IMG/VR virus record: IMGVR_UViG_3300044981_000083
Span: 1-57,064 of that record
DNA: 57,064 nucleotides
Reading direction: 5' to 3' (one strand)
Source of the DNA: a virus
Taxonomy: Duplodnaviria; Caudoviricetes
Shown: positions 27,708 through 56,849 of the stretch, piece by piece
How the letters are laid out: every line of letters starts with the position of its first letter
Numbering within the stretch: position 1 is the stretch's first letter
The notes under the pieces: model-generated
Databases searched by the model: none
What the model was told of the DNA's origin: nothing
What the model saw: the letters and a program-made list of their open reading frames with translations, nothing else
Position numbers and translations under genes: made by a program

Positions 27708-29129
27708 ATGCGGATTTCAAAGACGCGCGGCGCTTTGATCGGACTTGCCGTTTTGGGCATCGGCTCCGGTCTTGCCTATGCGGCGGGCATGTGGAGCACC
27801 TTGCCGATCGTCGGCAATCCGTCCTTCTGCGCCTCGAATGTCTCCGGCGTTGGTCTTCCGGCCTCCCAGGGTCCGTTCGGCATCGTTCCCGGCTCTACGC
27901 AGGGCAACAGTTCGGGCATCTGCGGGCAGACTGTACCGGCCGGACCTCCCACGCTTACGGGCAATGAACTCATTCCCGCGGATACCGGCGGTCAAAGCGT
28001 CGGCCCGACCGGCGCCGCACCGGCGACCGTTACCATCCCGTCGCCGTTGCTTTTCAACCGGGTGAATTGGCTGGTCGGCTCCGATTATGGTCAGAGCCTC
28101 TGGCAGCGCGGCACCACTCCGGTCAATGCCGGGACTCCGGCGGGGAATGCCCTTTACACCGCCGATGGCTGGTATGTTTACACGACCGGCACGCAACAGG
28201 TCACGGTGTCGAAACAGACCGGATCGACCGATCAGCCGCCGGCTTCGCTCGCGTCAATGCGTGTACAGCGCCCGTCCACACAAGCCGGCGTGGCACCGAT
28301 TTGCGTCGGACAGCTTATCCCGGATGATTCCTCGCAGAGCTTCATCGGCCGCACGGCGGTCTTCTCGATCGACGCGATAGCGGGGGCACTCTTCTCGCCG
28401 AACCAAGACGCGGTGTCGATGATCATCGCGTATCATTCCGCTGCTGATGCGACCGCGGCGGCCAACGGGCAGGGCACCAATACCGCGACTTTCGCGTCGT
28501 CGGCCGGGGCGACGCAAAATATCACGAATTACACCGAGGCGGTGAATACGCTGGTTCCGCTCGGAACCGCATGGAATACGCGCTATTCCGTCGCTGCCGT
28601 GATCCCCGCTTTGATTCCAGGCACTTCGACGGCGACGACGGGTGTTGGCGTCAAGATTTGCTTCACCCCGGTAGGTACAGCAGGCGCAACCGACTGGTTT
28701 GAATTCGGCAAGGCACAGTTGGAGTCTCGTGCCGGCGGTGCGGTTGGTCCGTCTCCCTACGTGCCCAATCTTTTGTCGGCCGAATGGGCCTACGAACAAG
28801 CACGGTATTTCCAGGTCAATGAAGGCGTCGGGGGAACTCCGATCGTCGGTTACGGAATGGTCAATGGGACCAACAATGAACTGATCGGAATCAACTTTCC
28901 GGTGACGATGCGAATAACTCCCGTGACCTCGCCGATCACGGCAGGCGGCTTCCGCCTCGATATCGCCGGAACGTTGACAGCGACGGGAACCATTGGCGCC
29001 CCGGCAAACGGCAACACCAAGCAGATCGGCGAGTTGAATACGACCGCCGTTGCGACCTCCGGCCAGGCGACTTGGCTGACCGGCGGCCAGCTCGGGACAG
29101 GCGTGCTTGGCTTCAGCGCCGAGCCGTGA
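27708..29129 (+). CDS. Putative virion structural or tail protein with signal peptide
   Basis: MRISKTRGALIGLAVLGIGSGLAYA-AG; LWQRGT, YTADGW, AQLE, ARYFQ, FPVTMRITP tail-fibre-like motifs. Confidence 0.7.
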   Translation: MRISKTRGALIGLAVLGIGSGLAYAAGMWSTLPIVGNPSFCASNVSGVGLPASQGPFGIVPGSTQGNSSGICGQTVPAGPPTLTGNELIPADTGGQSVGPTGAAPATVTIPSPLLFNRVNWLVGSDYGQSLWQRGTTPVNAGTPAGNALYTADGWYVYTTGTQQVTVSKQTGSTDQPPASLASMRVQRPSTQAGVAPICVGQLIPDDSSQSFIGRTAVFSIDAIAGALFSPNQDAVSMIIAYHSAADATAAANGQGTNTATFASSAGATQNITNYTEAVNTLVPLGTAWNTRYSVAAVIPALIPGTSTATTGVGVKICFTPVGTAGATDWFEFGKAQLESRAGGAVGPSPYVPNLLSAEWAYEQARYFQVNEGVGGTPIVGYGMVNGTNNELIGINFPVTMRITPVTSPITAGGFRLDIAGTLTATGTIGAPANGNTKQIGELNTTAVATSGQATWLTGGQLGTGVLGFSAEP

Positions 29130-29141
29130 AGCAATGCCGGC

Positions 29142-30515
29142 GTGGCTCTCGATCGAAAGCCTTGCCGTCATGGCTCTCGCTTTATTGGGTATAAGCCTTC
29201 TGATCTGGCGCCGCCCGCGTTACCTGCCGCCAAGACGGCGTGGCAGGAAAAAGCGGCGCCCTTTCTAGGCTTCCTGGTCATGGTTGCCTTCTGGCCAGGA
29301 ATGCTGGGCGCCGGGCTGACGCCGCGCTGGGCGGTGTTGTGGGTAGGGTTGCCGATCTTGGCGGTGCCGCCGCGCATGACGGCGATTGGATGGGTCGGAG
29401 CTTCGTTTCTGGCGTTTGCTGTTCTATCTCTCGCGTGGTCGCCGTTTCCGTTTGATGGTGTTTATGAGTTAGCGGTCTTCGGTGCGGGAGCGCTCGCATT
29501 CTGTCTCGGGTCCAACCTTGAACGGCTCGGTCATGTGTTTTATGGTGCGGCGCTGGGGCTCCTCCCGTCATCCACCATTGCGGTGATCCAATGGTTTCAT
29601 GGTCCGATAGCGGATATCCTGCAACTGACGCCGCATCCGAGCGGGCTGTTCGTCAACGCGAACATGATGGCGGAAGCGAGTGCGTTAGTAGTGTGTGGAC
29701 TGATCGCGACGCATCGGCATTTCACGCTTTGTCGTTACGCGGCAGTGTTTGCAAGCTTGCCAGTTCTCCCGCCGATGCGGCATTCGCAGATAGCGGACCA
29801 TGCCGCCGAACGGCAAAAATCCGCATTCCGTGTCCTTGCGGCGAAACCGATTTTTACGGCAAGCTCATCGGTTATCAGTGCGGTCGCTGTCGCGGCATCT
29901 TTACCCGCACTTATATTCCCGATGCAGCGCGCGTCGATGATCGCTTTGGCGATTGTGGGTATGATCTCCATCGCTTTGATCGCGATCAAAAGACACGCAT
30001 GGAAATGGCACGGCGCTTCAGTCGGTCCCATGATTACGCTGTGCGCGACAGGGCTTTGCACGATTCTCTTTATCGCGCTTTCAAAACCGACGGGATCGTT
30101 GTCTGAACGCTTTGATATCTGGCGCGCTACGCTTTCCGGCCTGACTCCCTTCGGCCACGGCTCCGGTTCGTTCGAGGGCCTGTTTCCGATCTACAGTAAT
30201 GACCTTCTGAATGGCCTCTATCTGCGTCCGCTCTACGCCCACAATGACCTCCTACATCTGGCATTCGAATATGGGATGTTTTCGCTTATTCCCGCCGCGA
30301 TGGCGGCCCTGCTATTGGCTCGCTCGGTATCGCCGCTGCGCTGTGTTCTTGCGGTGTTCGTGATTGTGGGGTTATTCGGGTTTCCGCTTTTCATGCCGGC
30401 GACGTTGTTCTTGGCAAGCATTGTTGCGGGGCATCTTAGTCGCGAGTGGCCTGAGCTTCGCTGGGCTGAACTGTATCGCGGAATATTACGCTACCGAAGG
30501 CTGGGCCACGCTTGA
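29142..30515 (+). CDS. O-antigen ligase / O-oligosaccharyltransferase (Wzy_C) family membrane protein
   Basis: Many TM helices; GLFVNAN, ERFDIW, FGHGSGSF, AHNDLLHLAFEYG. Confidence 0.85.
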   Translation: MALDRKPCRHGSRFIGYKPSDLAPPALPAAKTAWQEKAAPFLGFLVMVAFWPGMLGAGLTPRWAVLWVGLPILAVPPRMTAIGWVGASFLAFAVLSLAWSPFPFDGVYELAVFGAGALAFCLGSNLERLGHVFYGAALGLLPSSTIAVIQWFHGPIADILQLTPHPSGLFVNANMMAEASALVVCGLIATHRHFTLCRYAAVFASLPVLPPMRHSQIADHAAERQKSAFRVLAAKPIFTASSSVISAVAVAASLPALIFPMQRASMIALAIVGMISIALIAIKRHAWKWHGASVGPMITLCATGLCTILFIALSKPTGSLSERFDIWRATLSGLTPFGHGSGSFEGLFPIYSNDLLNGLYLRPLYAHNDLLHLAFEYGMFSLIPAAMAALLLARSVSPLRCVLAVFVIVGLFGFPLFMPATLFLASIVAGHLSREWPELRWAELYRGILRYRRLGHA

Positions 30516-30804
30516 CCTCGATAAGACGGATGTTGCGAGAAAGTTGTTTCCATTCCGGTCTAACTACAGGGTGGCATCCGCGCATTTATCGTTGAACGGT
30601 CCAAGTGACGCGGCGACCCTGCAAATTCTCGAACGCGCAATTGCGACCGATCCGAACGACATGACCATCCGCGAGGCGATCCTGATCCATCATCTTCGGC
30701 GCGGCGACCGCAAGGAAGCGGAAGCTGCGTTGCTCGACCTCAAGCGCATCGCCCCCTATTCGCCCGTCGCGCGGTCACTCTTACAGGTGCGGCCCGATCC
30801 ATGA
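30424..30804 (+). CDS. TPR-like protein with hydrophobic N-terminus overlapping the ligase gene
   Basis: LERAIATDPND...GDRKEAEAALLDLKRIAP; start codon uncertain. Confidence 0.6.
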   Translation: MRGILVASGLSFAGLNCIAEYYATEGWATLDLDKTDVARKLFPFRSNYRVASAHLSLNGPSDAATLQILERAIATDPNDMTIREAILIHHLRRGDRKEAEAALLDLKRIAPYSPVARSLLQVRPDP

Positions 30805-31256
30805 AGATCAGCAAAAACAGTGCGCGTGGGCTTGTCGTGGCCATGGTATTGGGTATTGCCGCGATGGCGCCCGGCATCTATGGCGCATTCGTTTCGCGTC
30901 TATTTGCCCAGGGCAACCAGTCTGGCGCGTCCGTCGAGGGCATCCCCGTCAATCGCTCGACCGTCAACGGTTCAATCACGATCACCACGGGGAATACCTT
31001 TCAGACAGTATTGGCATCGAATCTCACAACGCAATTCGGCCAAACCGTCACGCCGCGCTACGCGCTCACGATCGAAAATAACAATGCGAGCGACAGTTGC
31101 TGGCTTTATCTTGGGAACGGAATCGCGACGAAAGCGATTTCGATCCTCTTGCTTCCCGGCGGGTCATATACGCGATACTGGCCATTTGTACCTTCCGATC
31201 AAATCCAGGCGACCTGCTCCACGACCTCGGACACGCTGTATGTCGATACGCAATAA
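30801..31256 (+). CDS. Small beta-rich putative structural protein with signal or anchor sequence
   Basis: Basic plus hydrophobic N-terminus; LTIENN...LLPGGSY. Confidence 0.65.
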   Translation: MKISKNSARGLVVAMVLGIAAMAPGIYGAFVSRLFAQGNQSGASVEGIPVNRSTVNGSITITTGNTFQTVLASNLTTQFGQTVTPRYALTIENNNASDSCWLYLGNGIATKAISILLLPGGSYTRYWPFVPSDQIQATCSTTSDTLYVDTQ

Positions 31257-32505
31257 GATATTCGAAGTCGTCGCGGCGCTTCTCGTTTCTGCTTTTCCTG
31301 CGCTTGCCGATGGGATCAGCAATCCTGGAGGCAGTGGCGCGGGCTTGACTCTCACGGTTAATTCAACCGCCGTTTCCGGCGCCACGGCTGGGCAGGCGCT
31401 CTACTCGGATGGCACGAAGCTACAAGCCAGTGGGATTCTCATAGGCAGTGGTGGCAATATCTATGGCGGCTCTGCGGTCGGCTCGACCGTCACCGTCAAC
31501 GGCACTTCGAACGGTTCGCCCTCGGCGGCCTACGTGTTCATCGACACGATCGGCAACAAGGTCTCAATCGGCCAAGCGGTAAACCCGGACGCAAGCCTCA
31601 CGATCTATGGAGGCACCCAGGGCGCACAGACAGTGGCGCCGCCCAATACAGCGCACTTGCACATCGTCGGTCCGGACGGCACCTTCACCGTGATGCTGGT
31701 GGATGATTTCAGTTCCGGCGCTGCTAACGGCAATAATCTCCAGTTTCGCAGGGCGGATGGCACCCTAGCCAGCAAGACCGCGCTGCAAGCCAACGACGTG
31801 ATCGCCAACATCGGCGCTTTAGGTTTCGACGGCACTGCCTATAGCGGTGGACAGGCGAGTATCAGGTTCATCGCGCAGGACAACTGGGTGAACGGTTCGG
31901 ACCACGCTACTTTCATCGACTTCAGGACCACGCCCGCCGGGTCCGTTACGTTGGGTGTGGCCGCGAAGTTATTTGGCTCCGGTGGCTTTTCGATCGGGCC
32001 GACGCCGGTCGATCCCGGCGCGGGCGGCATCTACGCGGCCGGTCAAATCGCCGCGCCCAATATCACCGCAACATCGGCCGGTGTTACTGGCACTGTATGC
32101 TGGACGACCGGCACCGGCGCGTTCACGATCGATACCACCACGACATGCCTCCTTTCGTTGGAAGAGCTAAAAGACAAGCGCGGGCCGATTATAGGCGCCC
32201 TCGATATTGTCAAGCGCCTCGATCCGTTCTGGTTCTCGTGGCGAGAGGGAACCACACAACGCGCTGGCGATACGCAGGTACAGCCCGGTTTCGGTGCGCA
32301 TCAAGTTGCGAGCGTCGATCCGCGGCTCGCTGCCTACGACAAGGACGGCAATCTACGCGGCGTGCGCTACCAGGAAATGACCGCCGTGCTCGCTGCGGCA
32401 CTCAAGGAAGCTGAATTCCGGATTGCTGAACTCGAAAGGAAGGCTATATGGTCCGAGTCGCCGCCGCTTACCTGCTGTATGCCCTCTTTTGCGCCGTTGC
32501 ATTAG
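31240..32505 (+). CDS. Tail fibre/spike with C-terminal Peptidase_S74 intramolecular chaperone and N-terminal signal peptide
   Basis: MSIRNKIFEVVAALLVSAFPALA-DG; G/T/S-rich body; SLEELK...ALD.V..L...GFGAHQV...VRYQEMTAVL..ALKE. Confidence 0.85.
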   Translation: MSIRNKIFEVVAALLVSAFPALADGISNPGGSGAGLTLTVNSTAVSGATAGQALYSDGTKLQASGILIGSGGNIYGGSAVGSTVTVNGTSNGSPSAAYVFIDTIGNKVSIGQAVNPDASLTIYGGTQGAQTVAPPNTAHLHIVGPDGTFTVMLVDDFSSGAANGNNLQFRRADGTLASKTALQANDVIANIGALGFDGTAYSGGQASIRFIAQDNWVNGSDHATFIDFRTTPAGSVTLGVAAKLFGSGGFSIGPTPVDPGAGGIYAAGQIAAPNITATSAGVTGTVCWTTGTGAFTIDTTTTCLLSLEELKDKRGPIIGALDIVKRLDPFWFSWREGTTQRAGDTQVQPGFGAHQVASVDPRLAAYDKDGNLRGVRYQEMTAVLAAALKEAEFRIAELERKAIWSESPPLTCCMPSFAPLH

Positions 32506-32693
32506 CCGAAGACAAAAACATCCTCGCCGTTATCGAGCCGGCCGATGCGCAGGCGTTAAGCCAAATCATCGACGACCAGTTGCCGCCGCGCTATGGGCGC
32601 ATCGTAGTCGAATGGTTCAATCGTTTGGTCATGCGCCAACAGCAGCGCGATAAGGAATCACTCAAACCTCCTATCGAATCACCCCCGAACTGA
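32448..32693 (+). CDS. Small protein with signal peptide (possible fibre chaperone)
   Basis: MVRVAAAYLLYALFCAVALA-ED; directly follows the fibre gene. Confidence 0.6.
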   Translation: MVRVAAAYLLYALFCAVALAEDKNILAVIEPADAQALSQIIDDQLPPRYGRIVVEWFNRLVMRQQQRDKESLKPPIESPPN

Positions 32694-32707
32694 AAGGAAA
32701 CCTCCCA

Positions 32708-32875
32708 ATGCCCAACGATATCGGCGACGTGAAAGGCATCACCGGCACCTCCATGAACCTCAATACGCAGCCGGGTTATGGCGCGGAGAAGCCGTCCGCA
32801 ACCGCCGGCACGGCGAATCCCGGCAATACCAAGCCATCGAAGCCGGCGGAAAAGCCGGTCCCAATGCCGAAGTAA
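32708..32875 (+). CDS. Small low-complexity protein (not in the ORF track)
   Basis: SD AAGGA; MPNDIGDVKG...PMPK. Confidence 0.55.
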   Translation: MPNDIGDVKGITGTSMNLNTQPGYGAEKPSATAGTANPGNTKPSKPAEKPVPMPK

Positions 32876-32879
32876 TCTC

Positions 32880-42583: not shown

Positions 42584-43366
42584 ATGGCCGGACCTCCCGC
42601 CGAAGGCCCCATACCGGTCGATACCGTTTCGGCTTTATTGATCAATGCACTGACCGATGCCGGGGTGGTGGGAATCGACGAGGCTATCGAGCAGCCGATC
42701 CTCAACCGGGCCTTCACGCAAGCGAATTGGCTGTTAGCACAATGGGCAAGAAAACGTTGGCTTTGTTATCGACTCCAGGATTATTCGTTCGTCTCGACGG
42801 GAGCACTAACATACAGCGTGGGGTTGACGGCTCCGAATGCTCCCACGGCCATCAATATCAATCCTCGACCCGACCGTTTGGAATATGCCTTCCTGAGGTT
42901 TCTCAACCAGAATCCTCCCTCGGGGTTATTCGTCGATATTCCGATCGACATTATCCAGTCCCACGAGGATTATTCAGGCATCACGGTAAAGAACATCGGC
43001 ACCTTGCCATGGCGGATATTCTACGATCCGGTATGGCCGGTAGGGGTGCTGTTTCCCTGGCCGGTCCCGCAGCCGACGATCTATGAGATACATTGCGGCT
43101 TCAAGGTCGTCCTTCCCCGGTTTGCAAATCTCCAGCAGGCGATCAATTTCCCCCCCGAGTATGAAGCCGCGTTGAATTGGTGTCTGGCGCGACGGTTTCG
43201 TGCGAGCTATCAGATGCCGCCTGATCCGACCATCGATTCGCTTGCAAGAGATGGTCTCAATGTGATCCGCCTCGCGAACCAACAAATGCCGACGCTGCGC
43301 ATGCCGCAGTTCCTTCGTGGAGGAAACCGGGCGTATGATTACCGCGGCGATTCCGATTCATACTGA
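42584..43366 (+). CDS. Head-to-tail adaptor (P22 gp4-like)
   Basis: LLINAL.DAGV.G...LLAQW; WPVP; FPPEYEAAL.W.LA; synteny. Confidence 0.75.
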   Translation: MAGPPAEGPIPVDTVSALLINALTDAGVVGIDEAIEQPILNRAFTQANWLLAQWARKRWLCYRLQDYSFVSTGALTYSVGLTAPNAPTAININPRPDRLEYAFLRFLNQNPPSGLFVDIPIDIIQSHEDYSGITVKNIGTLPWRIFYDPVWPVGVLFPWPVPQPTIYEIHCGFKVVLPRFANLQQAINFPPEYEAALNWCLARRFRASYQMPPDPTIDSLARDGLNVIRLANQQMPTLRMPQFLRGGNRAYDYRGDSDSY

Positions 43367-43382: not shown

Positions 43383-43880
43383 ATGAACCTCATTCGAGCC
43401 TGCCGCGCCTTCGGCGCCGGATTCGCCTTGGTGTTGCTCGGCTTCATTGCTCACGCTGCTGTCGGCACGCCGCCGCTCGGCGGTATCGGTCCTGCTTTGC
43501 AGGACGGCCAATGGCTGCTCGGTCTCGCGGGAGGCACGAATTACGGCTACCAGTCGGGGATCACGGCCCATGCCGGGGGCACCCAGGCCGCAGCCACCGT
43601 ACTGCCGACGAACATTGCCCTAGTCGAGGTGGATACAGTCGCCACGACCGGCGATAGCGTGGCGCTGCCGCAATGTATTCAGGGCACGTGGTTGTTTCTT
43701 CGCAATGCCGGCGCCGGAACGCTCGACGTGTACGGCAATACGATCACCAACCCCCTGAGTGCGACGCTCGATACCATCAACGCGACGGCGGGGACGAGCG
43801 CTTACACCCTCACGACCAACACCAACGCGATCTTCTTCTGCGCCAAAAACGGCGCATGGTCGGCGGGCAAGGTCAGTTGA
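43383..43880 (+). CDS. Putative decoration or structural protein with signal peptide
   Basis: MNLIRACRAFGAGFALVLLGFIAHA-AV; ITAHAGGTQAAAT, VATTGDSVALP. Confidence 0.7.
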   Translation: MNLIRACRAFGAGFALVLLGFIAHAAVGTPPLGGIGPALQDGQWLLGLAGGTNYGYQSGITAHAGGTQAAATVLPTNIALVEVDTVATTGDSVALPQCIQGTWLFLRNAGAGTLDVYGNTITNPLSATLDTINATAGTSAYTLTTNTNAIFFCAKNGAWSAGKVS

Positions 43881-43883: not shown

Positions 43884-45425
43884 ATGCGCGGTTTCCAGCG
43901 GGACGGCTTTATTCCGCTGACCTCCGGCGCCTATGCGCAACGAGCCTTAATCGCGGATGCACAGCGCTGCATCAACCTTGTGCCCGAGTTGAATCCGGAG
44001 GACACGACGCCGGCCGCAGCGGTGACGCATTATCCGCGCGCAGGACTGAGCGGACTGGGTGCCGGTCCTCCTAATCCCGCCACGGGCCGGGGAGTCTTCA
44101 CTGCCAGCAACGGCAATCTCTATGGTGCGGTTGCCAACAACTTCTATTTCATCAACCAGGATTGGAAATACAACCTTCTCGGCCAGATCAATAACGGGCC
44201 GAATCCGGTTTCCTTTGCCGACAACGGTACGTCCGGAATCATCGTCGATGGTTCGCCGAACGGCTACAGTTTCAACATCACCAACAATCAATGGAATGGA
44301 CTATACCAGGACCCGACTGGAACCTTTATCGGTTCGGTGAGGGCCGATTATGTCGATACGTTTCTCACCTTTGACGCACCGAACAGCAATGAGTGGTATG
44401 CCTCGCTGAGCCTTCAGCTCGCGTTCAATGCGCTGGCAGTCGGGGGTGCGACGAGTTTCCCGGATAAGATCATTACTCATGCGGTGAATTTGAGACAGGT
44501 TTTCCTGCTCAAGGAGTTCACGACCGAAGCATGGTATCTTTCCGGTGCGGTTCCTTTTCCTTTCGAGGAATGGCCGAACGTCTTCGTTCCCTATGGATGC
44601 GCGGCGGCTTATTCTCTGGCGAAAGCCGATACCTTTCTGTTTTGGATTTCACGAAACAGGGATGGCCAAGCGATGGCCGTCATGCTCGACGGCTATGGGG
44701 TCAAGATCATCTCGACCAGGGCATTGGAATATCGCTGGACGAATTACGCCAAAGTTCAGGATTGCATCGCCTATTCGTATCAGCAGGCGGGACATACCTT
44801 CGTCGTATTTCATTTTCCGAGCGCCGATGAAGCCTGGGCCTACGACCTCTCGACAAGGCAATGGCACCAAAGGGTGTGGATCGACAATAACGGTGTGTTT
44901 CATCGCGAGCGTGTCGCATTCCATGCCTTCGTTTCCACGACCAATGGATATCCTGATACGAACGTCGGAATGGACTGGGCGACTGGGCAAATCTACAAGA
45001 TCGACCAGAAGGCATACACCGACGTTGGCATGCCGATCGCGTGTATCCGGTCGTTTCCCCATGTGACGGGCGAGCTCAAGGAAATGACTATCCCCTCTTT
45101 CGTCGCCGACATGGCGACCGGAGATATCCCGAACACCGGGGAAATCAATCAAACCCTGTCTCCCTGGTCGAATGGCTGGAGCAATGGGTTTGGTCCGCTT
45201 ATTGTCCAAGAATCTCCGCAGGTCGCGTGCCGTATTTCGAGGGATGGCGGGGGCACATGGGGGAACTATCGCAAAAAATGGTTTATTTCCGCCGGACGAT
45301 ATCGCTCGATGATGCGATGGCGTAATTGGGGCATGGGACGAGATTTGGTATATGAGTTGGCGTTTCCGGCCTACAATCTCGCTCTCCAAGGCGCCTATAT
45401 CGAGCCGATCAAGCATGCAGCGTGA
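43884..45425 (+). CDS. Packaged DNA stabilization / tail hub protein (P22 gp10-like)
   Basis: QRCINLVPE, VSFADNG, GCAAAYS, ISTRALE, YQQAGHTF, SRDGG.TW. Confidence 0.88.
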   Translation: MRGFQRDGFIPLTSGAYAQRALIADAQRCINLVPELNPEDTTPAAAVTHYPRAGLSGLGAGPPNPATGRGVFTASNGNLYGAVANNFYFINQDWKYNLLGQINNGPNPVSFADNGTSGIIVDGSPNGYSFNITNNQWNGLYQDPTGTFIGSVRADYVDTFLTFDAPNSNEWYASLSLQLAFNALAVGGATSFPDKIITHAVNLRQVFLLKEFTTEAWYLSGAVPFPFEEWPNVFVPYGCAAAYSLAKADTFLFWISRNRDGQAMAVMLDGYGVKIISTRALEYRWTNYAKVQDCIAYSYQQAGHTFVVFHFPSADEAWAYDLSTRQWHQRVWIDNNGVFHRERVAFHAFVSTTNGYPDTNVGMDWATGQIYKIDQKAYTDVGMPIACIRSFPHVTGELKEMTIPSFVADMATGDIPNTGEINQTLSPWSNGWSNGFGPLIVQESPQVACRISRDGGGTWGNYRKKWFISAGRYRSMMRWRNWGMGRDLVYELAFPAYNLALQGAYIEPIKHAA

Positions 45426-45428: not shown

Positions 45429-46259
45429 ATGGCCAACTCGCAAACCGGCGTTCCCGGCATTCCGCAAGGTCCCTTGGTGGACCGTAACGGCGTGCCGATG
45501 CCGATATGGTGGCAGTTTTTCAATAATCTGTGGGTGCGTACCGGGGCCGCTTCGGGTACGCCATCGCTCGTTCTTGATAATATCTCGTCAACGCCCGGAG
45601 CGACGCTTTATCGCGGCAGTGCAATCTGGTCGGGACTTGCGCCCGCTGCGCGTTATAAAGTCCTGCGGATGGGCGTCACCTATCCGGAATGGGATACGCT
45701 CGACGGCAATTCATTCGGGGCACAAGCCAAGTCAAGTTTCTTCGTTTCGCCGGATAATGCGTCCGGCGTTCCGGCATTCCGTCCGATCGCCTCTCTCGAC
45801 CTTGGTCCGGTCGCCGGACAGATTCCGGGCACGGGCACGAACGACGATGCGACTGCGGGAAATACCGGGGAATTCATCTCGCAATCGATTCCACTTGGTC
45901 ACGCGGTTGCGCTTGCCAGCGGCGTCGCTGCCGATATCGCATCAATCGTATTGACTCCGGGTGATTGGGACGTATGGGCAAACATCGCAAACATTCCCGA
46001 TCCCACCACGACAACCTCGATCATAAGGGCGTGGATCAACACAGTCCCGGCGACCGATCCGGCGGCGCCGAACTCGGGAGCGTATCTGTTGATGCAACAG
46101 GCAATCGGGGCCGGATTGGCTCAGGCGTTTCCGGTGGGAATGAAACGCATCACAGTTCCGACCGCAACGACAACAACGGCCTACATGTCAACGAAAATGA
46201 CATTCGCGGTTGCGAACCTGGGGGCTTACGGATTCCTCGGGGCGCGGAGGCCGCGATAG
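45429..46259 (+). CDS. Tail-associated structural protein
   Basis: PLVD..G....WWQFF N-terminus; AGNTGE, LTPGDWDV, ARR.R C-terminus. Confidence 0.7.
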   Translation: MANSQTGVPGIPQGPLVDRNGVPMPIWWQFFNNLWVRTGAASGTPSLVLDNISSTPGATLYRGSAIWSGLAPAARYKVLRMGVTYPEWDTLDGNSFGAQAKSSFFVSPDNASGVPAFRPIASLDLGPVAGQIPGTGTNDDATAGNTGEFISQSIPLGHAVALASGVAADIASIVLTPGDWDVWANIANIPDPTTTTSIIRAWINTVPATDPAAPNSGAYLLMQQAIGAGLAQAFPVGMKRITVPTATTTTAYMSTKMTFAVANLGAYGFLGARRPR

Positions 46260-49809: not shown

Positions 49810-49810
49810 C

Positions 49811-50482
49811 ATGGCCGATACGCAGCAACAGCGAAAAGCCGGCCGAACCGTCTACATCATCCGCCATGGCCAAACCATGCTCAACGTGGATGACAAGATC
49901 AGGTCATGGCTCGATATTCCCCTGACCGATGACGGATTCGAGGAAGCGAAGAAACTGGGATGGGAATTGCGCAATGCGAATATAAAATTGACGGGGCTGT
50001 TTTCGTCCGACCTCTTGCGCTCGCTGCAAACCACGCTGGAAATTTCAGGCATAGCCGGGTTTCCGATCCTGGGCGCGACGCATGCCTTGCGACCGTGGAA
50101 TGTCGGGACCTATGCGGGAAAGAATGGTCCGACTGTCCATAAGAAGATGATGGAGTATGCCGAGAACTCGCCGGACAAGGTTCTAGGCGGCGGGGAGTCC
50201 TTCAATATCTTCAAGTATCGGGTGTTGTGCGGGATCATAGGGTTACTCAATTCCACTCCTGGTATATTAGGCTTGGTCTCGCATTCCAGGGGCGAGCGTA
50301 TTCTTCATGCCTGGGTAGCGGCGGGATGCCCGGAAAACCTCGACGTTGACCTCGACGTGTTCGGAGAGCGCGGGGAAGAGACTGCGAGCGCGCAGAAGCT
50401 GGAAGTGAATTGCGCCCTGATCGAACAGAATGATGACGAAGGCCATCCCGAAGACGCTTTAAGCGCCAGACCAAATGCCTGA
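49811..50482 (+). CDS. Histidine phosphatase (phosphoglycerate mutase-like) family protein
   Basis: IIRHGQT, DIPLT, SSDLLRS.QT, GGES, VSH. Confidence 0.9.
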   Translation: MADTQQQRKAGRTVYIIRHGQTMLNVDDKIRSWLDIPLTDDGFEEAKKLGWELRNANIKLTGLFSSDLLRSLQTTLEISGIAGFPILGATHALRPWNVGTYAGKNGPTVHKKMMEYAENSPDKVLGGGESFNIFKYRVLCGIIGLLNSTPGILGLVSHSRGERILHAWVAAGCPENLDVDLDVFGERGEETASAQKLEVNCALIEQNDDEGHPEDALSARPNA

Positions 50483-53141: not shown

Positions 53142-54848
53142 ATGAAGCGCATCCAAGTCTTCCTCATCCTAGCATTTTGCGCCTTGGCCTCGCAAGCCTT
53201 GGGGCAGGCCGCCCAGTTGATTCCGGGCGAACAGTGCTTCCAGGCCACCACCGGAATCAACGGCATGGTGGGCCTCCTGGGAACGATTACGGGGGGCACT
53301 GGGGGCACCACCGGGACCTATGGGGGCGTCCCCCTCACGGGTGGGTCCGGATCGGGCGCTACAGCGAATATCACGGTCTCCGGGGGAACCGTGACGGGGG
53401 TGGCGATTCTCAACCCAGGGACACAGTATGTTGTCGCGGACGTGCTTTCCGCGGCTTCAGCCAACATCGGCAACGTGACCGGCTTCTCGGTTTCCGTGTC
53501 CTCCGTTGCAATCAATTCGAGCCTCGCAGGCGGTACGGTATCCTACTACATTCCGTCCACTAACACCTTTAAGCAGACGTGGCAGAATGCGCTTCAGACG
53601 GTCCTGAACACGAACCCCGTCAACCTCGATTCCAACGGCTGTGCGATCGTCTATGGCACCGGGACCTATCGCCAGATTCTCAAGGACTCGCTTGGAAATA
53701 CGGTCTGGGATCAACTCACGACCGCGATTTCCACAGGAAATCCTCCATATTGGGCGAATCTCGCTGGGGGAACTGCGAATGCGATCACGGTCACGGATAC
53801 CGGCTTTGCGGCCCAGGATGGGGCGCAGATAAATTTCATTGCGTTGCTGACGAATACCGGAGCGGCAACCCTCAATCCATCAGGCTACGGGAATATCCCC
53901 ATCGTCAAGGATACCACGGCGGGACCCGTGGCTCTGACCGGGGGCGAGATCGTCGCCCGCAATCTCATCCAGCTGCAGTACTCGGCGACCAACAATAATT
54001 TCACCCTCCTGAATCCCCCGATTCAGTCCGCAGCGGGGGCAACGCCGGCTCCGCTGTGCGGGGCGCAGATGCTGGTCTTGACCAATGGGACAGTTCCAGC
54101 GGCCGATATCAACGTCACCGCTGCCACGCTGGTCATGGTCTCCTCGACCGGGCTCGTCATCAATCGCTCCAACGTCTCTCTTGTCCTCAATATCGCGACG
54201 GGCTCTGCGAGCTCGATCGCCAATGGCATGGATGGGGAGGCGCCGGGGACCAATGCCTGGATCGATGTCTTCGGGATAGATAATGGAGCCGCCCCCGCGA
54301 CCCTTGGATCGTTGGCGGCCGGCAACGGCCTATCGCCGCAACTCCCGACCGGCTACACCTATATCTGCTATCTCGGGGCGGCGAGAGTCGACGGTTCCGG
54401 AAATCTCCTGACCTGGACGCAACGGGGCCGGGAATCGCAATATCTCGTCGGTTCGGCCAATGTTCCCATTGCTCCCAATATTGCAAATGGAGTCGCGGGC
54501 ACTTGGAGTGTAACGAGTCCTGCGCTCGCGTCTGTGGCGGTGGCAGCGTTTGTGCCCCCGACGGCAACCCAGATTAAGGTCTTGGCCGCGGTGCGCTGGA
54601 AGGGAGCTGCGGGCGATGGCAGCGGGTTATTGGTGGCTCCTAACGTAAACTGGGGCGGCACCAACAACGGTCCGCAAGGGTCGGCGGGGCAAATCTGGCC
54701 GATCTCATTCGACGACAGCATATACAACAATCTCAACATCTCGGCGTGGCTGCTGCTTGAGGCTACGCAAACCATCGGCTGGGCTTCGAACAGGGCGAGT
54801 GGGGCGATCTCGGCACTCGGATGGACGGATGCGGTCAATGCGAATTAA
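53142..54848 (+). CDS. Tail spike/fibre with head-binding-like domain and signal peptide
   Basis: MKRIQVFLILAFCALASQALG-QA; LAGG.V..Y...T...KQTW...NTNPVNLDSNG...Y..G.YR.ILKD..GN..WD. Confidence 0.8.
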   Translation: MKRIQVFLILAFCALASQALGQAAQLIPGEQCFQATTGINGMVGLLGTITGGTGGTTGTYGGVPLTGGSGSGATANITVSGGTVTGVAILNPGTQYVVADVLSAASANIGNVTGFSVSVSSVAINSSLAGGTVSYYIPSTNTFKQTWQNALQTVLNTNPVNLDSNGCAIVYGTGTYRQILKDSLGNTVWDQLTTAISTGNPPYWANLAGGTANAITVTDTGFAAQDGAQINFIALLTNTGAATLNPSGYGNIPIVKDTTAGPVALTGGEIVARNLIQLQYSATNNNFTLLNPPIQSAAGATPAPLCGAQMLVLTNGTVPAADINVTAATLVMVSSTGLVINRSNVSLVLNIATGSASSIANGMDGEAPGTNAWIDVFGIDNGAAPATLGSLAAGNGLSPQLPTGYTYICYLGAARVDGSGNLLTWTQRGRESQYLVGSANVPIAPNIANGVAGTWSVTSPALASVAVAAFVPPTATQIKVLAAVRWKGAAGDGSGLLVAPNVNWGGTNNGPQGSAGQIWPISFDDSIYNNLNISAWLLLEATQTIGWASNRASGAISALGWTDAVNAN

Positions 54849-56376
54849 AACGATCATCGCCGCGCTTGCGGTTACGCTCGCGCTTTCGGCGCCGGTCTGC
54901 GCGCAAACCGGCTCGTCGAAAACCGTCACTGCGCTTAACAACGAGGTCAATTCGCTCTTTCCCGATCAAAACACCGGAGCGATTACACCCTTCGATGCGC
55001 GGCAGACGTTTCTCGATATTATCGCGTCTTCGGCCAATCTCAACGGTACGGTCTTTCTCGGCAATACGGCTTTCATCAATACCTATCTGCCCGGCTTCCT
55101 CGATCCCGGCGTGGCCAACATCACCGCAGCGGCGCCGCAAGCCAACATCTCGATGCTGCTGGCGGCGCAGTCATCGCAAAAGACGCTGGCGGATGGCTAT
55201 CTTGGTCAGATTCCACTTACGATTCTCAACGTAGTCGATACCACCGTCGCGACATACGGGGGCATCTTCGGCGCCTACGTCCAAAACACCCTGCTCGCCA
55301 CTTCTGATCCGGTTGTGGTCGGTGGTGGCAGGACCTACGGTGCCATCCTGGCTGAGTTCTCGACCAGCAATTTATGGGCCGTGGTCGGGTCCGATCCTTA
55401 TACCATCAATGCCAACGGCAGCGTCCACGGCCTCCGGGTCGATTGCGGCCTAGGTCCTAGTGGCCCCAACAACTGCGGAGGTTATGCTTTCGAGGTCGTC
55501 AATAACGGTGCCCAATTCGGTGGCGGCCTCTTGTGCGGGTCGAATGCGCTCATCGTGACGGCTGGTGTTTCCTATTGCATAGCGGCCGTCAACGATCAGT
55601 TTCTCGCATGGTTTTATGGCGCCGGAAATGTCGGGTTTTCGATTACGTCGGAAGTCACGGCATCGGCCGACGCGCAGGTCCTCAAGGCCGTTAACACCGG
55701 GCTGAATTATTATTTCGACGGGTCGCTGTCCGTCAGCTTGCAAAGCAGCGGCGTCATCAACCTTGCATCTGGCGGTAATGTTCAGATCGCTTCGAATTTT
55801 ATCCTCGGCATGAGCGAAATCTGCACTTATGGCAGCATCAGCGGCAGCGTGTGCCAGGCGGTGGGAGCCACGGTCGGCGGCAACTATGTTCTGCGCTGGC
55901 CGGGCGGCTCGACGGATTTCACCGGCACGGGCGGCACGTCGCAGGTTGTCAAGCAGACGACGAGCGGAGGCGCCTTCACGGTGGCGCAGCTTGCCTGCGC
56001 CGACCTCTCGAATGCTGCGGCGTCGTGTGCGACCGATGCCACCAATGCGGCGAACATCGGGTCGGGCACGCTGCCGAGCGGCCGACTGTCCGGTGCCTAT
56101 ACGGGAATCACGGAGCTTGCCGCCGCGGTCGGCATCGGCACCGCAGCGACGGCCGCCACGGGGCTGACCATCAACGGTCCCGGCACTGACGGCACTACCT
56201 TTCCCTTCATCCTGCGCAATTCCGGTAGCGTCAATTTGTTTTATGTCGATGACGCCGGCGATATATTCACAACAGGTGCGAAGCAGGGCGTGACCACGGT
56301 TTGCACCGAAACAGTGGGAAACACGCTGACCTTCACCAATGGACTTCTGACCACAAAAGGCGCAAACTGCACATGA
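54838..56376 (+). CDS. Tail fibre / receptor-binding protein with signal peptide
   Basis: MRIKTIIAALAVTLALSAPVCA-QT; ATNAANIGSGTLPSGRL; TLTFTNGLLT. Confidence 0.75.
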   Translation: MRIKTIIAALAVTLALSAPVCAQTGSSKTVTALNNEVNSLFPDQNTGAITPFDARQTFLDIIASSANLNGTVFLGNTAFINTYLPGFLDPGVANITAAAPQANISMLLAAQSSQKTLADGYLGQIPLTILNVVDTTVATYGGIFGAYVQNTLLATSDPVVVGGGRTYGAILAEFSTSNLWAVVGSDPYTINANGSVHGLRVDCGLGPSGPNNCGGYAFEVVNNGAQFGGGLLCGSNALIVTAGVSYCIAAVNDQFLAWFYGAGNVGFSITSEVTASADAQVLKAVNTGLNYYFDGSLSVSLQSSGVINLASGGNVQIASNFILGMSEICTYGSISGSVCQAVGATVGGNYVLRWPGGSTDFTGTGGTSQVVKQTTSGGAFTVAQLACADLSNAAASCATDATNAANIGSGTLPSGRLSGAYTGITELAAAVGIGTAATAATGLTINGPGTDGTTFPFILRNSGSVNLFYVDDAGDIFTTGAKQGVTTVCTETVGNTLTFTNGLLTTKGANCT

Positions 56377-56849
56377 AGACCACCCTGCAAATTTCTGTCC
56401 TCGTCGGATTCGTTCTTGTCTCTATCATCGGCGCATTTGTCGAGCACCTGCCGCGCTCCTATGCGGCAGAGGAACCGCGCCGCGTCACCGTGGACATGAC
56501 CATAGTGATGCTCGATCTCGACGGCAAACCGCTGAAGGATTCATTCCAGGCGACGGCAGAAGACCCGAATTGCAAGAAATGCGATGACCTGACTCTGGGG
56601 GGCGCCGTCATGCACGCGCTAGCGCAGGTTCTTCGCGACGACCAGGCCGTCACTGCCCAACGGCCGGCGTGGCTCGCGCTTGCCTTGCGCATCCAGGGCA
56701 AGAGCGATGCGACATTGAACTCCCGCGAGCAGACGCTGATCATTGATCGCATCGAGAAGGTCTATGCGTTGCTGCCGGGGAGTGTCGCGGTGACGCTGCG
56801 CGCGCCGCCGCTAATCGATGCAAATTGGAGTCCGCCGGAACTGAAATGA
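56373..56849 (+). CDS. Putative fibre assembly chaperone with signal peptide
   Basis: Hydrophobic N-terminus ending SYA-AE; DLDGKPL...LTLG...AL...LALRI. Confidence 0.6.
   Translation: MKTTLQISVLVGFVLVSIIGAFVEHLPRSYAAEEPRRVTVDMTIVMLDLDGKPLKDSFQATAEDPNCKKCDDLTLGGAVMHALAQVLRDDQAVTAQRPAWLALALRIQGKSDATLNSREQTLIIDRIEKVYALLPGSVAVTLRAPPLIDANWSPPELK

What the first reader, a model, noticed from the sequence alone, without database searches (positions are those of the whole stretch)
27708..56849. Virion appendage proteins systematically carry Sec signal peptides, suggesting periplasmic maturation of tail spikes and fibres
Seen: eight late-region proteins start with a basic n-region, hydrophobic h-region and small-residue cleavage site: 27708 (AYA-AG), 30801 (LFA-QG), 31240 (ALA-DG), 32448 (ALA-ED), 43383 (AHA-AV), 53142 (ALG-QA), 54838 (VCA-QT) and 56373 (SYA-AE). 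These include a fibre with an S74 chaperone domain, a protein with a tailspike head-binding-like domain, and the small genes directly after two fibres. Portal, scaffold, coat, gp4/gp10-like and ejection proteins lack such N-termini. Established: tailed-phage virions, including P22 tailspikes, normally assemble in the cytoplasm. Inference: this phage splits assembly between compartments, folding appendages in the periplasm and joining them to heads at or after lysis. Alternatively, exported receptor-binding proteins could mask receptors (exclusion).
Basis: partly seen in the sequence, partly recalled or inferred. Interest (0 to 1): 0.92.

Follow-up and report, generated by a model that had tools for sequence, protein, structure and literature searches.

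The report
Phage tailspikes carrying export signals
A soil-type P22-like phage, and hundreds of its uncultured relatives, put classic secretion signals and paired cysteines on their tailspike and fibre proteins, so parts of the virus particle may be made outside the cytoplasm, which no tailed phage is known to do.

Summary
The window is a complete 57-kb P22-like podophage genome with terminal repeats; its relatives lie in Hyphomicrobiales contigs. All eight named proteins start with signal-peptide-like N-termini (9 of 74 ORFs pass my rule, against 8 of 919 internal control windows). SignalP was not available.

The signals are conserved in function but not in sequence:
- A family: 116 of 120 homologues carry one.
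- F family: 109 of 120.
- E family: 85 of 107.

Mature parts carry even cysteine numbers: 120 of 120 for A, 105 of 109 for F, 81 of 85 for E. Signal-less E forms reach only 7 of 22. This is a disulfide signature of real export.

F is a true tailspike orthologue. Its mature N-terminus aligns from residue 2-3 of signal-less tailspikes of cultured phages, with two cysteines replacing their Ser/His and Glu. E sits between gp4 and gp10 in 43 of 46 related loci, and its domain heads tailspike-like proteins elsewhere.

Export is well supported. Joining of periplasm-matured appendages to heads after the membrane is breached is the best reading (about 0.45) but remains inference. I found no precedent in the literature searched.

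The parts
27708..29129 (+). A: exported fibre-like protein, 473 aa. Signal peptide is residues 1-24 (nt 27708-27779). The mature N-terminus holds a conserved motif with a Cys pair.
   Evidence: PHROG 4492 'tail fiber protein', E 5.3e-14, over residues 97-471. Among the best 120 homologues, 116 have a signal peptide by rule and 120 have an even Cys number in the mature part. The gene lies upstream of TerL in relatives.
29142..30515 (+). Polytopic membrane protein with a Wzy_C (O-antigen ligase/polymerase-like) domain. The start may be 29280.
   Evidence: Pfam PF04932, E 1.2e-9, 38.5 bits against a cut-off of 31.7. Homologues sit in the same cassette in 5 loci.
30364..30804 (+). Small TPR-repeat protein with a hydrophobic N-terminal segment. 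The start is uncertain.
   Evidence: Several TPR Pfam models match, each below its cut-off (best E 2.4e-4). Homologues follow the Wzy_C gene in 2 loci.
30801..31256 (+). B: small exported beta-rich protein, 151 aa, with 2 Cys in the mature part.
   Evidence: Homologues occur in 8 loci at 54-69% identity. All carry classic signal peptides of unrelated sequence. Cys count.
31240..32505 (+). C: exported fibre, 421 aa, with a C-terminal region resembling an intramolecular-chaperone (S74-like) domain.
   Evidence: Pfam Peptidase_S74 E 0.011, below cut-off. PHROG 1699 E 0.0037. Residues 311-418 match tail-fibre genes of Aeromonas phage ST4 and Burkholderia phage BcepIL02. Homologues in G002 and G004 have signal peptides.
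32448..32693 (+). D: 81-aa protein with a signal-peptide-like N-terminus, directly after C.
   Evidence: Passes the rule. No homologue in the 56 loci. No family hit.
42584..43366 (+). gp4-like tail adaptor with no signal peptide.
   Evidence: PHROG 12985. Conserved at 53-84% identity in 46 loci. Even Cys in 12 of 25 homologues, about chance.
43383..43880 (+). E: 165-aa exported beta-sandwich protein between gp4-like and gp10-like genes. Signal peptide is residues 1-25 (nt 43383-43457); the mature part is nt 43458-43877.
   Evidence: Found in 43 of the 46 loci that hold gp4. Of 107 close homologues, 85 have a signal peptide and 22 start with Met at the mature N-terminus. AlphaFold pLDDT 81. There are 127 BFVD fold matches at E<=0.001, including fibre, collagen-repeat and pectate-lyase proteins. 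The domain heads longer tailspike-like proteins.
43884..45425 (+). gp10-like tail hub (head closure Hc3) with no signal peptide.
   Evidence: PHROG 578, E 9.8e-69. Nearest cultured phages are 27-35% identical.
45429..46259 (+). Protein at the needle (gp26) position, 276 aa, no signal peptide, with a fibre-like C-terminal part.
   Evidence: PHROG 11393 'tail fiber protein', E 8.6e-10, over residues 127-276. ORFs at the equivalent position with a visibly similar N-terminus are 141-152 aa in G001, G003 and G004; BLAST against the window found no match for them.
53142..54848 (+). F: exported tailspike/fibre orthologue, 568 aa.
- Signal peptide, residues 1-21: nt 53142-53204.
- Conserved N-peptide, residues 22-37: nt 53205-53252.
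- Gly-rich domain, residues 38-125: nt 53253-53516.
- Particle-binding (head-binding-like) domain, residues 126-200: nt 53517-53741.
- Body and variable C-terminus: nt 53742-54845.
   Evidence: tblastn of residues 128-195 hits the N-termini of podophage tailspikes. BLASTP of family member P0343 residues 22-93 matches residues 2-74 of signal-less tailspikes. Foldseek hits fibre N-domains in the Pan3 and Pam1 tail complexes. A signal peptide is present in 109 of the best 120 homologues. Cys32 and Cys167 are invariant in 61 sequences.
54838..56376 (+). G: exported 512-aa protein with 10 Cys in five closely spaced pairs. The N-terminal about 80 residues are shared with larger exported proteins of relatives.
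   Evidence: Cys positions 203/213, 233/247, 329/339, 387/397, 489/511. Residues 3-82 are 52% identical to a 407-aa exported protein that follows the F homologue in G003. No family or cultured-phage hit.
56373..56849 (+). H: 158-aa protein with an N-terminal hydrophobic segment (signal peptide or signal anchor). It is the last gene of the late operon.
   Evidence: Passes the rule. Start overlaps the stop of G as ATGA. No homologue in the 56 loci.

Best explanation
The phage is a P22-like podovirus of Hyphomicrobiales. Its receptor-binding appendages have been moved to the Sec pathway. These are the tailspike orthologue F, the small fibre-type module E, and probably the fibres A, C and G.

Proposed steps:
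1. Each protein is made with a cleavable signal peptide and exported.
2. Signal peptidase I cuts it to the same N-terminus that signal-less relatives have.
3. It folds with disulfide bonds in the oxidising periplasm.
4. DNA-filled heads, closed by gp4, gp10 and the needle, accumulate without spikes in the cytoplasm.
5. When the holin breaches the inner membrane (or at lysis), the two compartments mix.
6. The spikes dock on the tail hub through the conserved N-terminal anchor domain.

Shown here:
- The signal peptides, and their conservation in function with divergence in sequence.
- The cysteine signature.
- The orthology of F to tailspikes.
- The position of E and the context in which its domain occurs.

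Inferred:
- Actual export and cleavage.
- Presence of the processed proteins on virions.
- The time and place of joining.
For: 1. Signal peptides are conserved.
- A family: 116 of the best 120 homologues pass the rule. Two more have visibly weaker ones.
- F family: 109 of 120.
- E family: 85 of 107.
- Signal regions are the least conserved part. Mean column identity is 0.45 for the F signal against 0.77-0.79 for the next 180 residues, and 0.34 against 0.61-0.63 in E.

2. Disulfide signature.
- All 10 signal-bearing proteins of the window have even Cys counts in the mature part (0, 4, 4, 2, 4, 0, 2, 4, 10, 2).
- They hold 11.6 Cys per 1000 aa, against 3.9 in 21 signal-less late proteins.
- Even Cys counts: 120 of 120 for A, 105 of 109 for F, 81 of 85 for signal-bearing E, but 7 of 22 for signal-less E (Fisher p 6e-10, rows not independent).
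- Controls are near chance: gp4-like 12 of 25, gp10-like 17 of 26.

3. F is a tailspike orthologue.
- Family member P0343 residues 22/23-93, right after its predicted cleavage site, align to residues 2/3-74 of the signal-less tailspike-position proteins of Rhodoferax phage P26218 (46% identity, E 4e-14) and Pseudomonas phage PAE2 (43%, E 1e-16).
- The two family-invariant Cys stand where those proteins have Ser/His and Glu.
- The same domain starts at about residue 20 of the annotated Shewanella phage X14 tailspike.
- Foldseek places it on fibre N-domains of the solved Pan3 and Pam1 tail complexes (72-76 columns, rmsd 1.6-2.7, probability 1.00).
- F has a conserved N-terminus and a variable C-terminus, as receptor-binding proteins do.

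4. E behaves as a core gene.
- It is tightly packed between gp4 and gp10, with gaps of 16 and 3 nt.
- It is present in 43 of the 46 loci that hold gp4.
- The signal was gained or lost at least 5 times on its tree.
- Signal-less forms begin with Met exactly at the mature N-terminus.
- The domain forms the N-terminus of longer proteins, among them a 1019-aa protein with a pectate-lyase-like domain.

5. The Gly-rich domain of F also occurs as an insert in the gp10 hub protein of two relatives.

6. No rival spike in four of the five genomes. In the five complete genomes I gene-called, every large protein at the tail-fibre position that I could assess has a signal peptide. The exceptions are one 590-aa fibre-like ORF in G004 and an unchecked 921-aa ORF in G001.

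7. Recalled, not from a call: P22 tailspikes add last and spontaneously to finished heads in vitro.
Against: - There is no experimental datum. No virion proteome, no processed N-terminus and no localisation exists for any member.
- SignalP was not run; my rule is a heuristic.
- Joining after lysis must compete with rapid dilution of the components.
- No cultured relative has this architecture, so nothing anchors the model.
- Pfam's Head_binding model does not detect F even at E<=5.
- The cassette with A, B and C also holds a Wzy_C membrane protein and a TPR protein. That points to envelope glycan chemistry rather than virion building.
- One relative (G003) has eight exported proteins in a row, one with a Tat-type motif. 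That is more than a tail should need.
- D and H have no homologues, so nothing can be said for them.
Confidence: 0.45

Rival explanations
1. The proteins are truly exported but are not virion parts. In this reading they are late-expressed envelope-active factors. Possibilities are receptor-destroying or receptor-masking proteins, periplasmic glycan-modifying enzymes working with the Wzy_C protein, or release factors. They would derive from receptor-binding proteins because they recognise the same glycans. The particle itself would adsorb with the needle-position protein or some unrecognised protein.
For: - The Wzy_C and TPR genes lie inside the A-B-C cassette.
- G003 has a run of eight exported proteins, including one with a Tat-type motif.
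- Small exported genes D and H sit directly after fibre genes. This resembles receptor-blocking genes next to receptor-binding genes in T5-like and lambdoid phages (recalled, not from a call).
- The needle-position protein of the window has a fibre-like C-terminal part and no signal.
- Export itself is well supported.
Against: - F keeps the tail-hub anchor domain as one of its most conserved parts (0.77 mean column identity, with 16 invariant columns between residues 125 and 190). It is 43-46% identical to tailspikes of phages whose gp10 is only 31-35% identical. A protein that never meets the hub should lose this domain.
- No signal-less second copy exists in the window.
- The ORFs at the needle position are only 141-152 aa in G001, G003 and G004.
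- 22 of 107 E homologues lack the signal yet keep the mature domain. A protein that acts in the periplasm could not tolerate that.
- The genes are not moron-like. They are tightly packed, have the same GC3 as their neighbours, and show no excess of promoter- or terminator-like sites.
Confidence: 0.27
2. Dual localisation. The signal peptides work, but only part of each protein is exported. A cytoplasmic pool, uncleaved or made late when Sec is saturated or blocked by the phage, assembles on the particle in the usual way. The exported pool would serve another purpose, such as exclusion or debris masking.
For: - This needs no new assembly route.
- Both signal-bearing and signal-less E forms occur in nature, so the mature domain can fold in either compartment.
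- A few database entries of the F family start at an internal Met (5 of 120).
Against: - The internal Met of F is not conserved. Other residues stand there in many homologues listed. The five entries lack the whole N-terminus and may be gene-call or contig-end artefacts.
- The near-universal even-Cys pattern and the invariant Cys32/Cys167 pair suggest that the functional form is the oxidised, exported one.
- An uncleaved hydrophobic N-terminus directly before the anchor domain would probably disturb docking (inference).
Confidence: 0.15
3. Artefact: the true starts lie downstream, or the hydrophobic N-termini are not signal peptides.
For: - SignalP was not run.
- B and H have atypically long hydrophobic stretches.
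- Weak Shine-Dalgarno motifs precede F and C.
Against: - The same architecture recurs in hundreds of independently called homologues, with unrelated signal sequences and a conserved small-residue site just before a conserved mature N-terminus.
- The false-positive rate of the rule is 8 of 919.
- The cysteine parity follows the presence of the signal.
Confidence: 0.03

Closest known systems
Tailspike-position proteins of podophages with a P22-type hub: Rhodoferax phage P26218 gp26, the unannotated Pseudomonas phage PAE2 ORF, and the annotated Shewanella phage X14 tailspike
   Same: - The N-terminal peptide and particle-binding domain are homologous (43-46% identity over about 72-95 residues).
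- The gene follows the ejection genes.
- These phages have gp4- and gp10-type hub genes.
- The N-terminus is conserved and the C-terminus is variable.
   Different: - Those proteins start with Met directly before the conserved peptide and have no signal peptide.
- They lack the two cysteines.
- They lack the Gly-rich domain.
- P26218 has no E gene between its gp4-like and gp10-like genes.
Salmonella phage P22 tail machine (gp4, gp10, gp26, gp9)
   Same: - Gene order runs portal, scaffold, coat, gp4-like, gp10-like, needle position, ejection proteins, spike.
- The spike bears an N-terminal hub-binding domain.
- Recalled, not from a call: gp9 adds last and can be added in vitro.
   Different: - P22 assembles wholly in the cytoplasm (recalled).
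- Here the spike orthologue is predicted to be exported.
- An extra exported gene (E) sits inside the hub operon.
- Pfam's Head_binding model is not matched.
Exported accessory proteins encoded among late or tail genes: lambda Lom and Bor, T5 Llp, Cor (recalled, not from a call)
   Same: They are signal-peptide proteins encoded in or beside tail genes. The small genes D and H, placed directly after fibres, fit this picture by position.
   Different: - Those are outer-membrane proteins or lipoproteins, are not homologous to virion parts, and vary among relatives.
- None of the eight proteins has a clear lipobox Cys at +1; D has a poor lipobox-like Cys inside its hydrophobic stretch.
- E, A and F are conserved core genes of the clade.
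Filamentous phage coat proteins (Ff pIII, pVIII) (recalled, not from a call)
   Same: These are virion proteins made with Sec signal peptides and matured outside the cytoplasm. pIII has disulfide bonds.
   Different: They belong to a different virus realm. Assembly is by extrusion through the envelope without lysis, not by addition to a preformed icosahedral head.
Fibres with a C-terminal intramolecular chaperone (Peptidase_S74, endosialidase type)
   Same: The C-terminus of protein C resembles this domain.
   Different: The match is below Pfam's cut-off. Known examples are cytoplasmic, whereas C carries a signal peptide.

Membership tests
Sec-type (signal peptidase I) signal peptides | Positively charged n-region, a hydrophobic h-region of about 7-15 residues, and small residues at -3 and -1 | tested here: met
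   Heuristic rule: 8 of the 8 named proteins pass. Background is 8 of 919 internal windows. B and H have over-long h-regions.
Sec-type (signal peptidase I) signal peptides | The feature is kept in homologues while its sequence drifts, and the cleavage site sits just before a conserved mature N-terminus | tested here: met
   A 116 of 120, F 109 of 120, E 85 of 107. Column identity of the signal regions is 0.34-0.45, against 0.61-0.79 after them.
Sec-type (signal peptidase I) signal peptides | Score from a trained predictor (SignalP, DeepTMHMM), or experimental export and cleavage | not testable with these tools
   No such predictor was on hand, and there are no experiments.
Exported disulfide-bonded proteins | Bias to even cysteine numbers in the mature part (criterion recalled from the literature on Dsb systems) | tested here: met
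   Window: 10 of 10 even. A 120 of 120, F 105 of 109, E with signal 81 of 85, E without signal 7 of 22. Controls: gp4-like 12 of 25, gp10-like 17 of 26.
Podophage tailspike/fibre with an N-terminal particle-binding domain (P22 gp9 type) | Homologous N-terminal hub-binding domain | tested here: met
   tblastn, BLASTP, and Foldseek to the Pan3 and Pam1 tail-complex chains.
Podophage tailspike/fibre with an N-terminal particle-binding domain (P22 gp9 type) | Match to Pfam Head_binding | tested here: not met
   No Pfam family for F at E<=5.
Podophage tailspike/fibre with an N-terminal particle-binding domain (P22 gp9 type) | Gene downstream of the ejection genes in a gp4/gp10-type tail module, with a conserved N-terminus and a variable C-terminus | tested here: met
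   Gene order. Homologues in 5 of 5 related records align over residues 4-445 only. Conservation profile.
Podophage tailspike/fibre with an N-terminal particle-binding domain (P22 gp9 type) | Synthesis and assembly in the cytoplasm (no signal peptide) | tested here: not met
   F and 109 of 120 homologues have a signal peptide. This is the point of departure from the family.
Podophage tailspike/fibre with an N-terminal particle-binding domain (P22 gp9 type) | Presence in the virion and binding to the hub | not testable with these tools
   No proteome exists.
Peptidase_S74 intramolecular-chaperone fibres (protein C) | Pfam PF13884 above its gathering score | tested here: inconclusive
   16.5 bits against a cut-off of 22, E 0.011. 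Supporting weak hits.
Morons / lysogenic-conversion genes | Own promoter and terminator, patchy presence among relatives, deviant composition | tested here: not met
   No excess of promoter- or terminator-like sites. E is in 43 of the 46 loci with gp4. GC3 of A, E and F is 0.72-0.74, like the neighbours. The sigma-70 consensus may not fit this host.
Receptor-blocking lipoproteins (Llp/Cor type) | Lipobox with Cys at +1 | tested here: not met
   None of the eight N-termini has a clear lipobox. D has a Cys within its hydrophobic stretch preceded by Ala-Leu-Phe, a poor lipobox match (translations).
O-antigen ligase/polymerase (Wzy_C) family (29142-30515) | Pfam PF04932 above cut-off in a polytopic membrane protein | tested here: met
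   38.5 bits against 31.7. Whether it is a ligase, a polymerase or a protein O-glycosyltransferase was not tested.

The most novel reading that the evidence does not exclude
A whole clade of tailed phages builds its virion in two compartments. Heads and the tail hub form in the cytoplasm. The tailspike and fibres are exported by Sec, cleaved, disulfide-bonded in the periplasm, and added only when the holin merges the compartments or after lysis. They may also be glycosylated there by the phage's own Wzy_C/PglL-like enzyme. That would be the first periplasmic step in Caudoviricetes morphogenesis. It would also make particles that are not yet infectious inside the cell.
Probability: 0.4. Interest if true: 0.92.

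Novelty: new variant of a known kind. Interest (0 to 1): 0.82.

Why it matters
Textbook tailed-phage assembly is entirely cytoplasmic. Here the only tailspike orthologue of a complete phage genome carries a conserved cleavable signal peptide and an added cysteine pair. So do hundreds of homologues from soil and freshwater metagenomes.

If the processed protein is on the virion, several things follow:
- Morphogenesis crosses a membrane.
- Lysis becomes an assembly step.
- Infectivity of intracellular particles, burst-size measurements and spike engineering would all need rethinking for this clade.
- It would show how phages obtain disulfide-stabilised, possibly glycosylated appendages for harsh environments.

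If the proteins are not on the virion, a large family of late-expressed, exported tailspike derivatives with an intact hub-binding domain needs another explanation.

Either way the question is directly testable, because a related prophage lies in a 634-kb Xanthobacteraceae contig.

Tried and rejected
- **Close cultured relatives.** Megablast of 32700-56900 against cultured phages found no match. tblastn of A, E and G against cultured phages also found none.
- **Related loci.** The search for related loci with the 854-aa ejection protein found no relative. I reached the F region of relatives through the genome search instead.
- **Family scans.** NCBIfam gave nothing for the eight proteins, only weak TPR hits for 30364. 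Pfam at E<=5 gave nothing for F or G.
- **Solved structures.** A profile of E against PDB sequences gave only a chance-level hit, E 1.3.
- **Complex prediction.** Complex prediction with F residues 126-200 in three copies plus gp10-like plus gp4-like returned no verdict (score 0.00). This is neither support for nor evidence against binding.
- **Internal start in F.** I considered that a conserved internal Met in F gives a cytoplasmic form. I rejected this because that Met is replaced by other residues in many homologues (listing).
- **E as a moron.** Rejected. E is tightly packed, is conserved in 43 of 46 loci, and has no promoter or terminator signal.
- **Lipoproteins.** None of the eight N-termini has a clear lipobox; D has only a poor lipobox-like Cys.

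**Literature.** Five searches found no report of a tailed-phage tailspike or fibre with a Sec signal peptide, or of periplasmic appendage maturation (listings and abstract starts only).
- Passages read by term search concerned lysis proteins or methods only: PMC3556154, PMC5026251, PMC13452462 (a signal peptide on a NosD-like viral protein in archaeal-associated contigs), PMC9144972, PMC3517404 and PMC11599138.
- PMC10386132 held none of the six terms.
- Supplements were not seen.
- The library lacks most subscription journals, so absence there is weak evidence.
- Recalled without any call: in vitro addition of P22 tailspikes to heads, the even-cysteine criterion, large holin lesions, T5 Llp, Cor, lambda Lom and Bor, and Ff coat proteins.

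Full report
**What the window is.** The 57,064-bp window is a whole IMG/VR virus record with direct terminal repeats, estimated 100% complete. PHROG and Pfam scans give a P22-like podovirus late module:
- TerL, probably starting at 32880
- portal, 34566
- scaffold, 38113
- coat, 39150
- gp4-like adaptor, 42584
- gp10-like hub, 43884
- a needle-position protein, 45429
- ejection proteins, 47143-49809
- a histidine-phosphatase-family protein, 49811
- an 854-aa ejection protein with a cell-wall hydrolase domain, 50475

Lysis genes lie far away at about 5555-9600. Replication genes and a Q-like antiterminator (26102) precede the late region. Coat relatives occur in 50 IMG/VR loci. They also occur in two MAG contigs, one labelled Beijerinckiaceae and one Xanthobacteraceae; the latter is a 634-kb contig, so that copy is a prophage. 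No cultured phage is close. The best gp10 match is 35% identical.

**The observation.** I had no SignalP, so I used a simple rule:
- net positive charge before the hydrophobic window
- a 10-residue hydrophobic window of at least 2.0 on the Kyte-Doolittle scale, starting within 16 residues
- a small-residue -3/-1 site within range

Results of the rule:
These are the eight plus an outer-membrane-protein-like gene at 10914/10920.
- The rule passes 8 of 919 internal windows of the same proteomes.
- It passes 1 of 44 annotated proteins of Rhodoferax phage P26218, the one cultured control I ran.
- Four complete relatives have 7 of 74, 11 of 78, 13 of 71 and 9 of 75.

B and H have long hydrophobic stretches and may be signal anchors.

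**Are the signals real? Conservation.**
- *Protein A.* 192 database proteins match at E<=0.001. Of the best 120, 116 pass an alignment-based signal test. Two more have visible but weaker signals. Two begin with Met at the mature N-terminus.
- *Protein F.* 481 proteins match at E<=1e-5. Of the best 120, 109 pass. Five lack the N-terminus altogether. Four have short or partial N-termini. Two were scored as starting at the mature end, and one of those (P0360) is an alignment artefact.
- *Protein E.* 139 proteins match. Of 107 close ones, 85 have a signal and 22 start with Met exactly where the others are predicted to be cleaved. In the fetched loci, 38 of 43 have the signal and 5 do not. In those five, in-frame stops lie just upstream.
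- The signal regions are the least conserved part of each family, and small residues at -3 and -1 precede a conserved mature N-terminus (alignment). This is how true signal peptides evolve.

**Are the signals real? Cysteines.** The criterion that exported, disulfide-bonded proteins tend to have even numbers of cysteines is recalled, not from a call.
- In the window, the ten signal-bearing proteins have 0, 4, 4, 2, 4, 0, 2, 4, 10 and 2 Cys in their mature parts. All counts are even.
- That is 11.6 Cys per 1000 aa, against 3.9 in 21 signal-less late proteins, where odd counts are common.
- G has five closely spaced pairs.
- Across families, even counts occur in 120 of 120 A homologues, 105 of 109 signal-bearing F homologues and 81 of 85 signal-bearing E homologues. 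Only 7 of 22 signal-less E homologues have even counts.
- Hub proteins are near chance: 12 of 25 and 17 of 26.
- The rows are related, so the p-values overstate independence. The contrast inside the E family is still informative, because the signal changed state at least five times on the tree, at least four forced by well-supported branches.

**What F is.** Residues 128-195 match the N-termini of tailspike-position proteins in 28 cultured-phage records. Among the 20 listed rows are ones annotated tailspike, colanidase and SGNH esterase. In Shewanella phage X14, the match begins 57 nt after the start of the annotated tailspike gene.

The tailspike-position protein of Rhodoferax phage P26218 begins with Met followed by the very peptide that follows the predicted cleavage site in the F family. 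BLASTP of family member P0343, which lacks the Gly-rich domain, aligns its residues 22/23-93 with residues 2/3-74 of the P26218 and PAE2 proteins (46% and 43% identity). The two cysteines that are invariant in 61 F-family sequences (Cys32, Cys167) stand where those proteins have Ser or His, and Glu.

An AlphaFold model (pLDDT 87) matches fibre N-domains in the solved Pan3 and Pam1 podophage tail complexes and a Pa193 fibre. Homologues in five of five related records align only over the first about 330-445 residues. The C-terminus is the variable part.

So F is a tailspike or fibre orthologue. A signal peptide was added precisely in front of the native N-terminus, and a cysteine pair was added in and next to the anchor domain. 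Its Gly-rich domain (residues 38-125) also occurs as an insert in the gp10 hub protein of two relatives.

**What E is.** E lies 16 nt after gp4 and 3 nt before gp10. It is present in 43 of the 46 loci that hold gp4. It has no Pfam, PHROG or NCBIfam family and no cultured-phage match.
- Its model is a beta-sandwich after the signal helix (pLDDT 81).
- PDB matches are weak. The best is a tailspike depolymerase, E 1.2e-3.
- There are 127 matches at E<=0.001 among predicted viral structures. Named ones include collagen-repeat, tail-fibre-like, tail-collar, minor-tail and pectate-lyase proteins.
- A profile search of 1.84 billion representatives finds 3040 proteins. In many of them the core domain occurs 2-10 times in proteins up to 2832 aa. 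In others, the full E sequence, including its N-terminal peptide, forms the N-terminus of 320-1019-aa proteins.
- One of these, 1019 aa and signal-less, continues into a pectate-lyase-like domain. Three others carry a signal peptide before the E domain.

E is therefore a fibre-type module that can serve as the head of tailspike-like proteins. The stand-alone form may be an adaptor or a small knob on the hub. This last step is inference.

**The cassette upstream of TerL.** A, a Wzy_C membrane protein, a TPR protein, B, C and D lie between the Q-like gene and TerL.
- Relatives keep A and B there, sometimes with Wzy_C plus TPR or with C.
- A matches the C-terminal 325 positions of a 1096-position tail-fibre PHROG.
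- C has a fibre C-terminus with a sub-threshold S74 match.
- The Wzy_C protein could be a seroconverting polymerase or ligase, or a protein O-glycosylating enzyme acting on its exported neighbours. I could not tell which.

**Weighing the readings.** Export and oxidation are well supported; I put them at about 0.85. Whether the exported proteins are virion parts is the open step.

In favour:
- F keeps the hub-anchor domain as one of its most conserved parts.
- No signal-less copy exists in the window. The needle-position ORFs are short in three relatives.
- E toggles between exported and cytoplasmic forms with the same mature end. That fits a protein that acts after the compartments have merged or outside the cell, not one that acts in the periplasm.
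- From recalled knowledge, P22 spikes add last, without help, to stable heads.

Against:
- There are no data on virions.
- Components dilute quickly at lysis.
- Envelope-glycan genes sit in the cassette.
- Relative G003 has eight exported proteins in a row, including one with a Tat-type motif.
- G004 has a 590-aa fibre-like protein without a signal, and G001 has an unchecked 921-aa ORF without a flagged signal.

My estimates are about 0.45 for two-compartment assembly, 0.27 for exported non-virion factors, 0.15 for dual localisation and 0.03 for artefact. The remainder goes to something not considered.

**Novelty.** Five full-text searches and seven papers read by term search gave no report of a Sec signal on a tailed-phage tailspike or of periplasmic appendage maturation. 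The library is incomplete and supplements were closed. I file the finding as a new variant of a known kind: tailspikes and fibres, here exported. If the assembly model holds, it would be a new kind of morphogenesis for tailed phages.

Noticed in passing
window 29142-30804: A Wzy_C (O-antigen ligase/polymerase-like) membrane protein and a TPR protein lie inside the exported-fibre cassette of the late operon. The pair recurs in relatives L025 and L042. It could be seroconversion, or periplasmic O-glycosylation of the neighbouring exported proteins.
   Followed up: partly
L006:15914-17842 and L038:12391-14274: The gp10-like hub proteins of two relatives carry an insert of about 100 aa. It is homologous to the Gly-rich domain of F (residues 38-147, about 50% identity).
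   Followed up: partly
G003 29420-39852 (loci L071): Eight consecutive exported proteins follow the ejection genes: 640, 407, 294, 299, 429, 208, 257 and 825 aa. The 429-aa one has a twin-arginine (Tat-type) N-terminal motif, which my Sec rule did not flag.
   Followed up: no
proteins P0364, P0370, P0373, P0393: The core of the E domain occurs as 7-10 tandem copies in giant proteins of 1905-2832 aa from metagenomes. Their nature (phage fibres or bacterial adhesins) is unknown.
   Followed up: no
window 49811-50482: A histidine-phosphatase-superfamily protein (Pfam His_Phos_1, E 3e-22) is encoded among the ejection proteins. In relative L005 its homologue sits next to the portal gene instead.
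   Followed up: no
window 50475-53039: The 854-aa ejection protein starts with a Hydrolase_2 (SleB-type cell-wall hydrolase) domain rather than a lytic transglycosylase. It has no cysteine at all.
   Followed up: no
window 36847-37215: An XRE-type HTH regulator gene with very low GC3 (0.41, against about 0.7 for neighbours) sits between portal and scaffold. It is absent from all related loci, so it is a likely recent insertion.
   Followed up: no
window 10920-11702 and G002 26307-27026: An exported protein resembling an outer-membrane beta-barrel protein lies in the early/lysis arm. A similar N-terminus occurs in relative G002 after its fibre genes. It is a probable conversion gene.
   Followed up: no
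window 9246-9597: Two tiny, extremely hydrophobic Gly-rich proteins (63 and 52 aa) lie beside the lysis genes. A similar 52-53-aa protein occurs in G003 and G004.
   Followed up: no
window 8541-9236: A further signal-peptide-like protein (231 aa, no Cys) lies in the lysis region. It is 47% identical to a signal-bearing protein next to the lysis genes of G004. It may be a lysis accessory or spanin-like component.
   Followed up: no
window 46500-47278 and G003 21895-22686: An ORF of about 260 aa overlaps another frame after the needle gene, and its start is unclear. An ORF with a visibly similar N-terminus sits between E and gp10 in G003, but BLAST against the window ORFs found no match for it. 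If related, the gene moves within the tail module.
   Followed up: no
window 32708-32875: A conserved 55-aa ORF lies directly before TerL (57% identical in G004). TerL probably starts at 32880 rather than 32778.
   Followed up: partly
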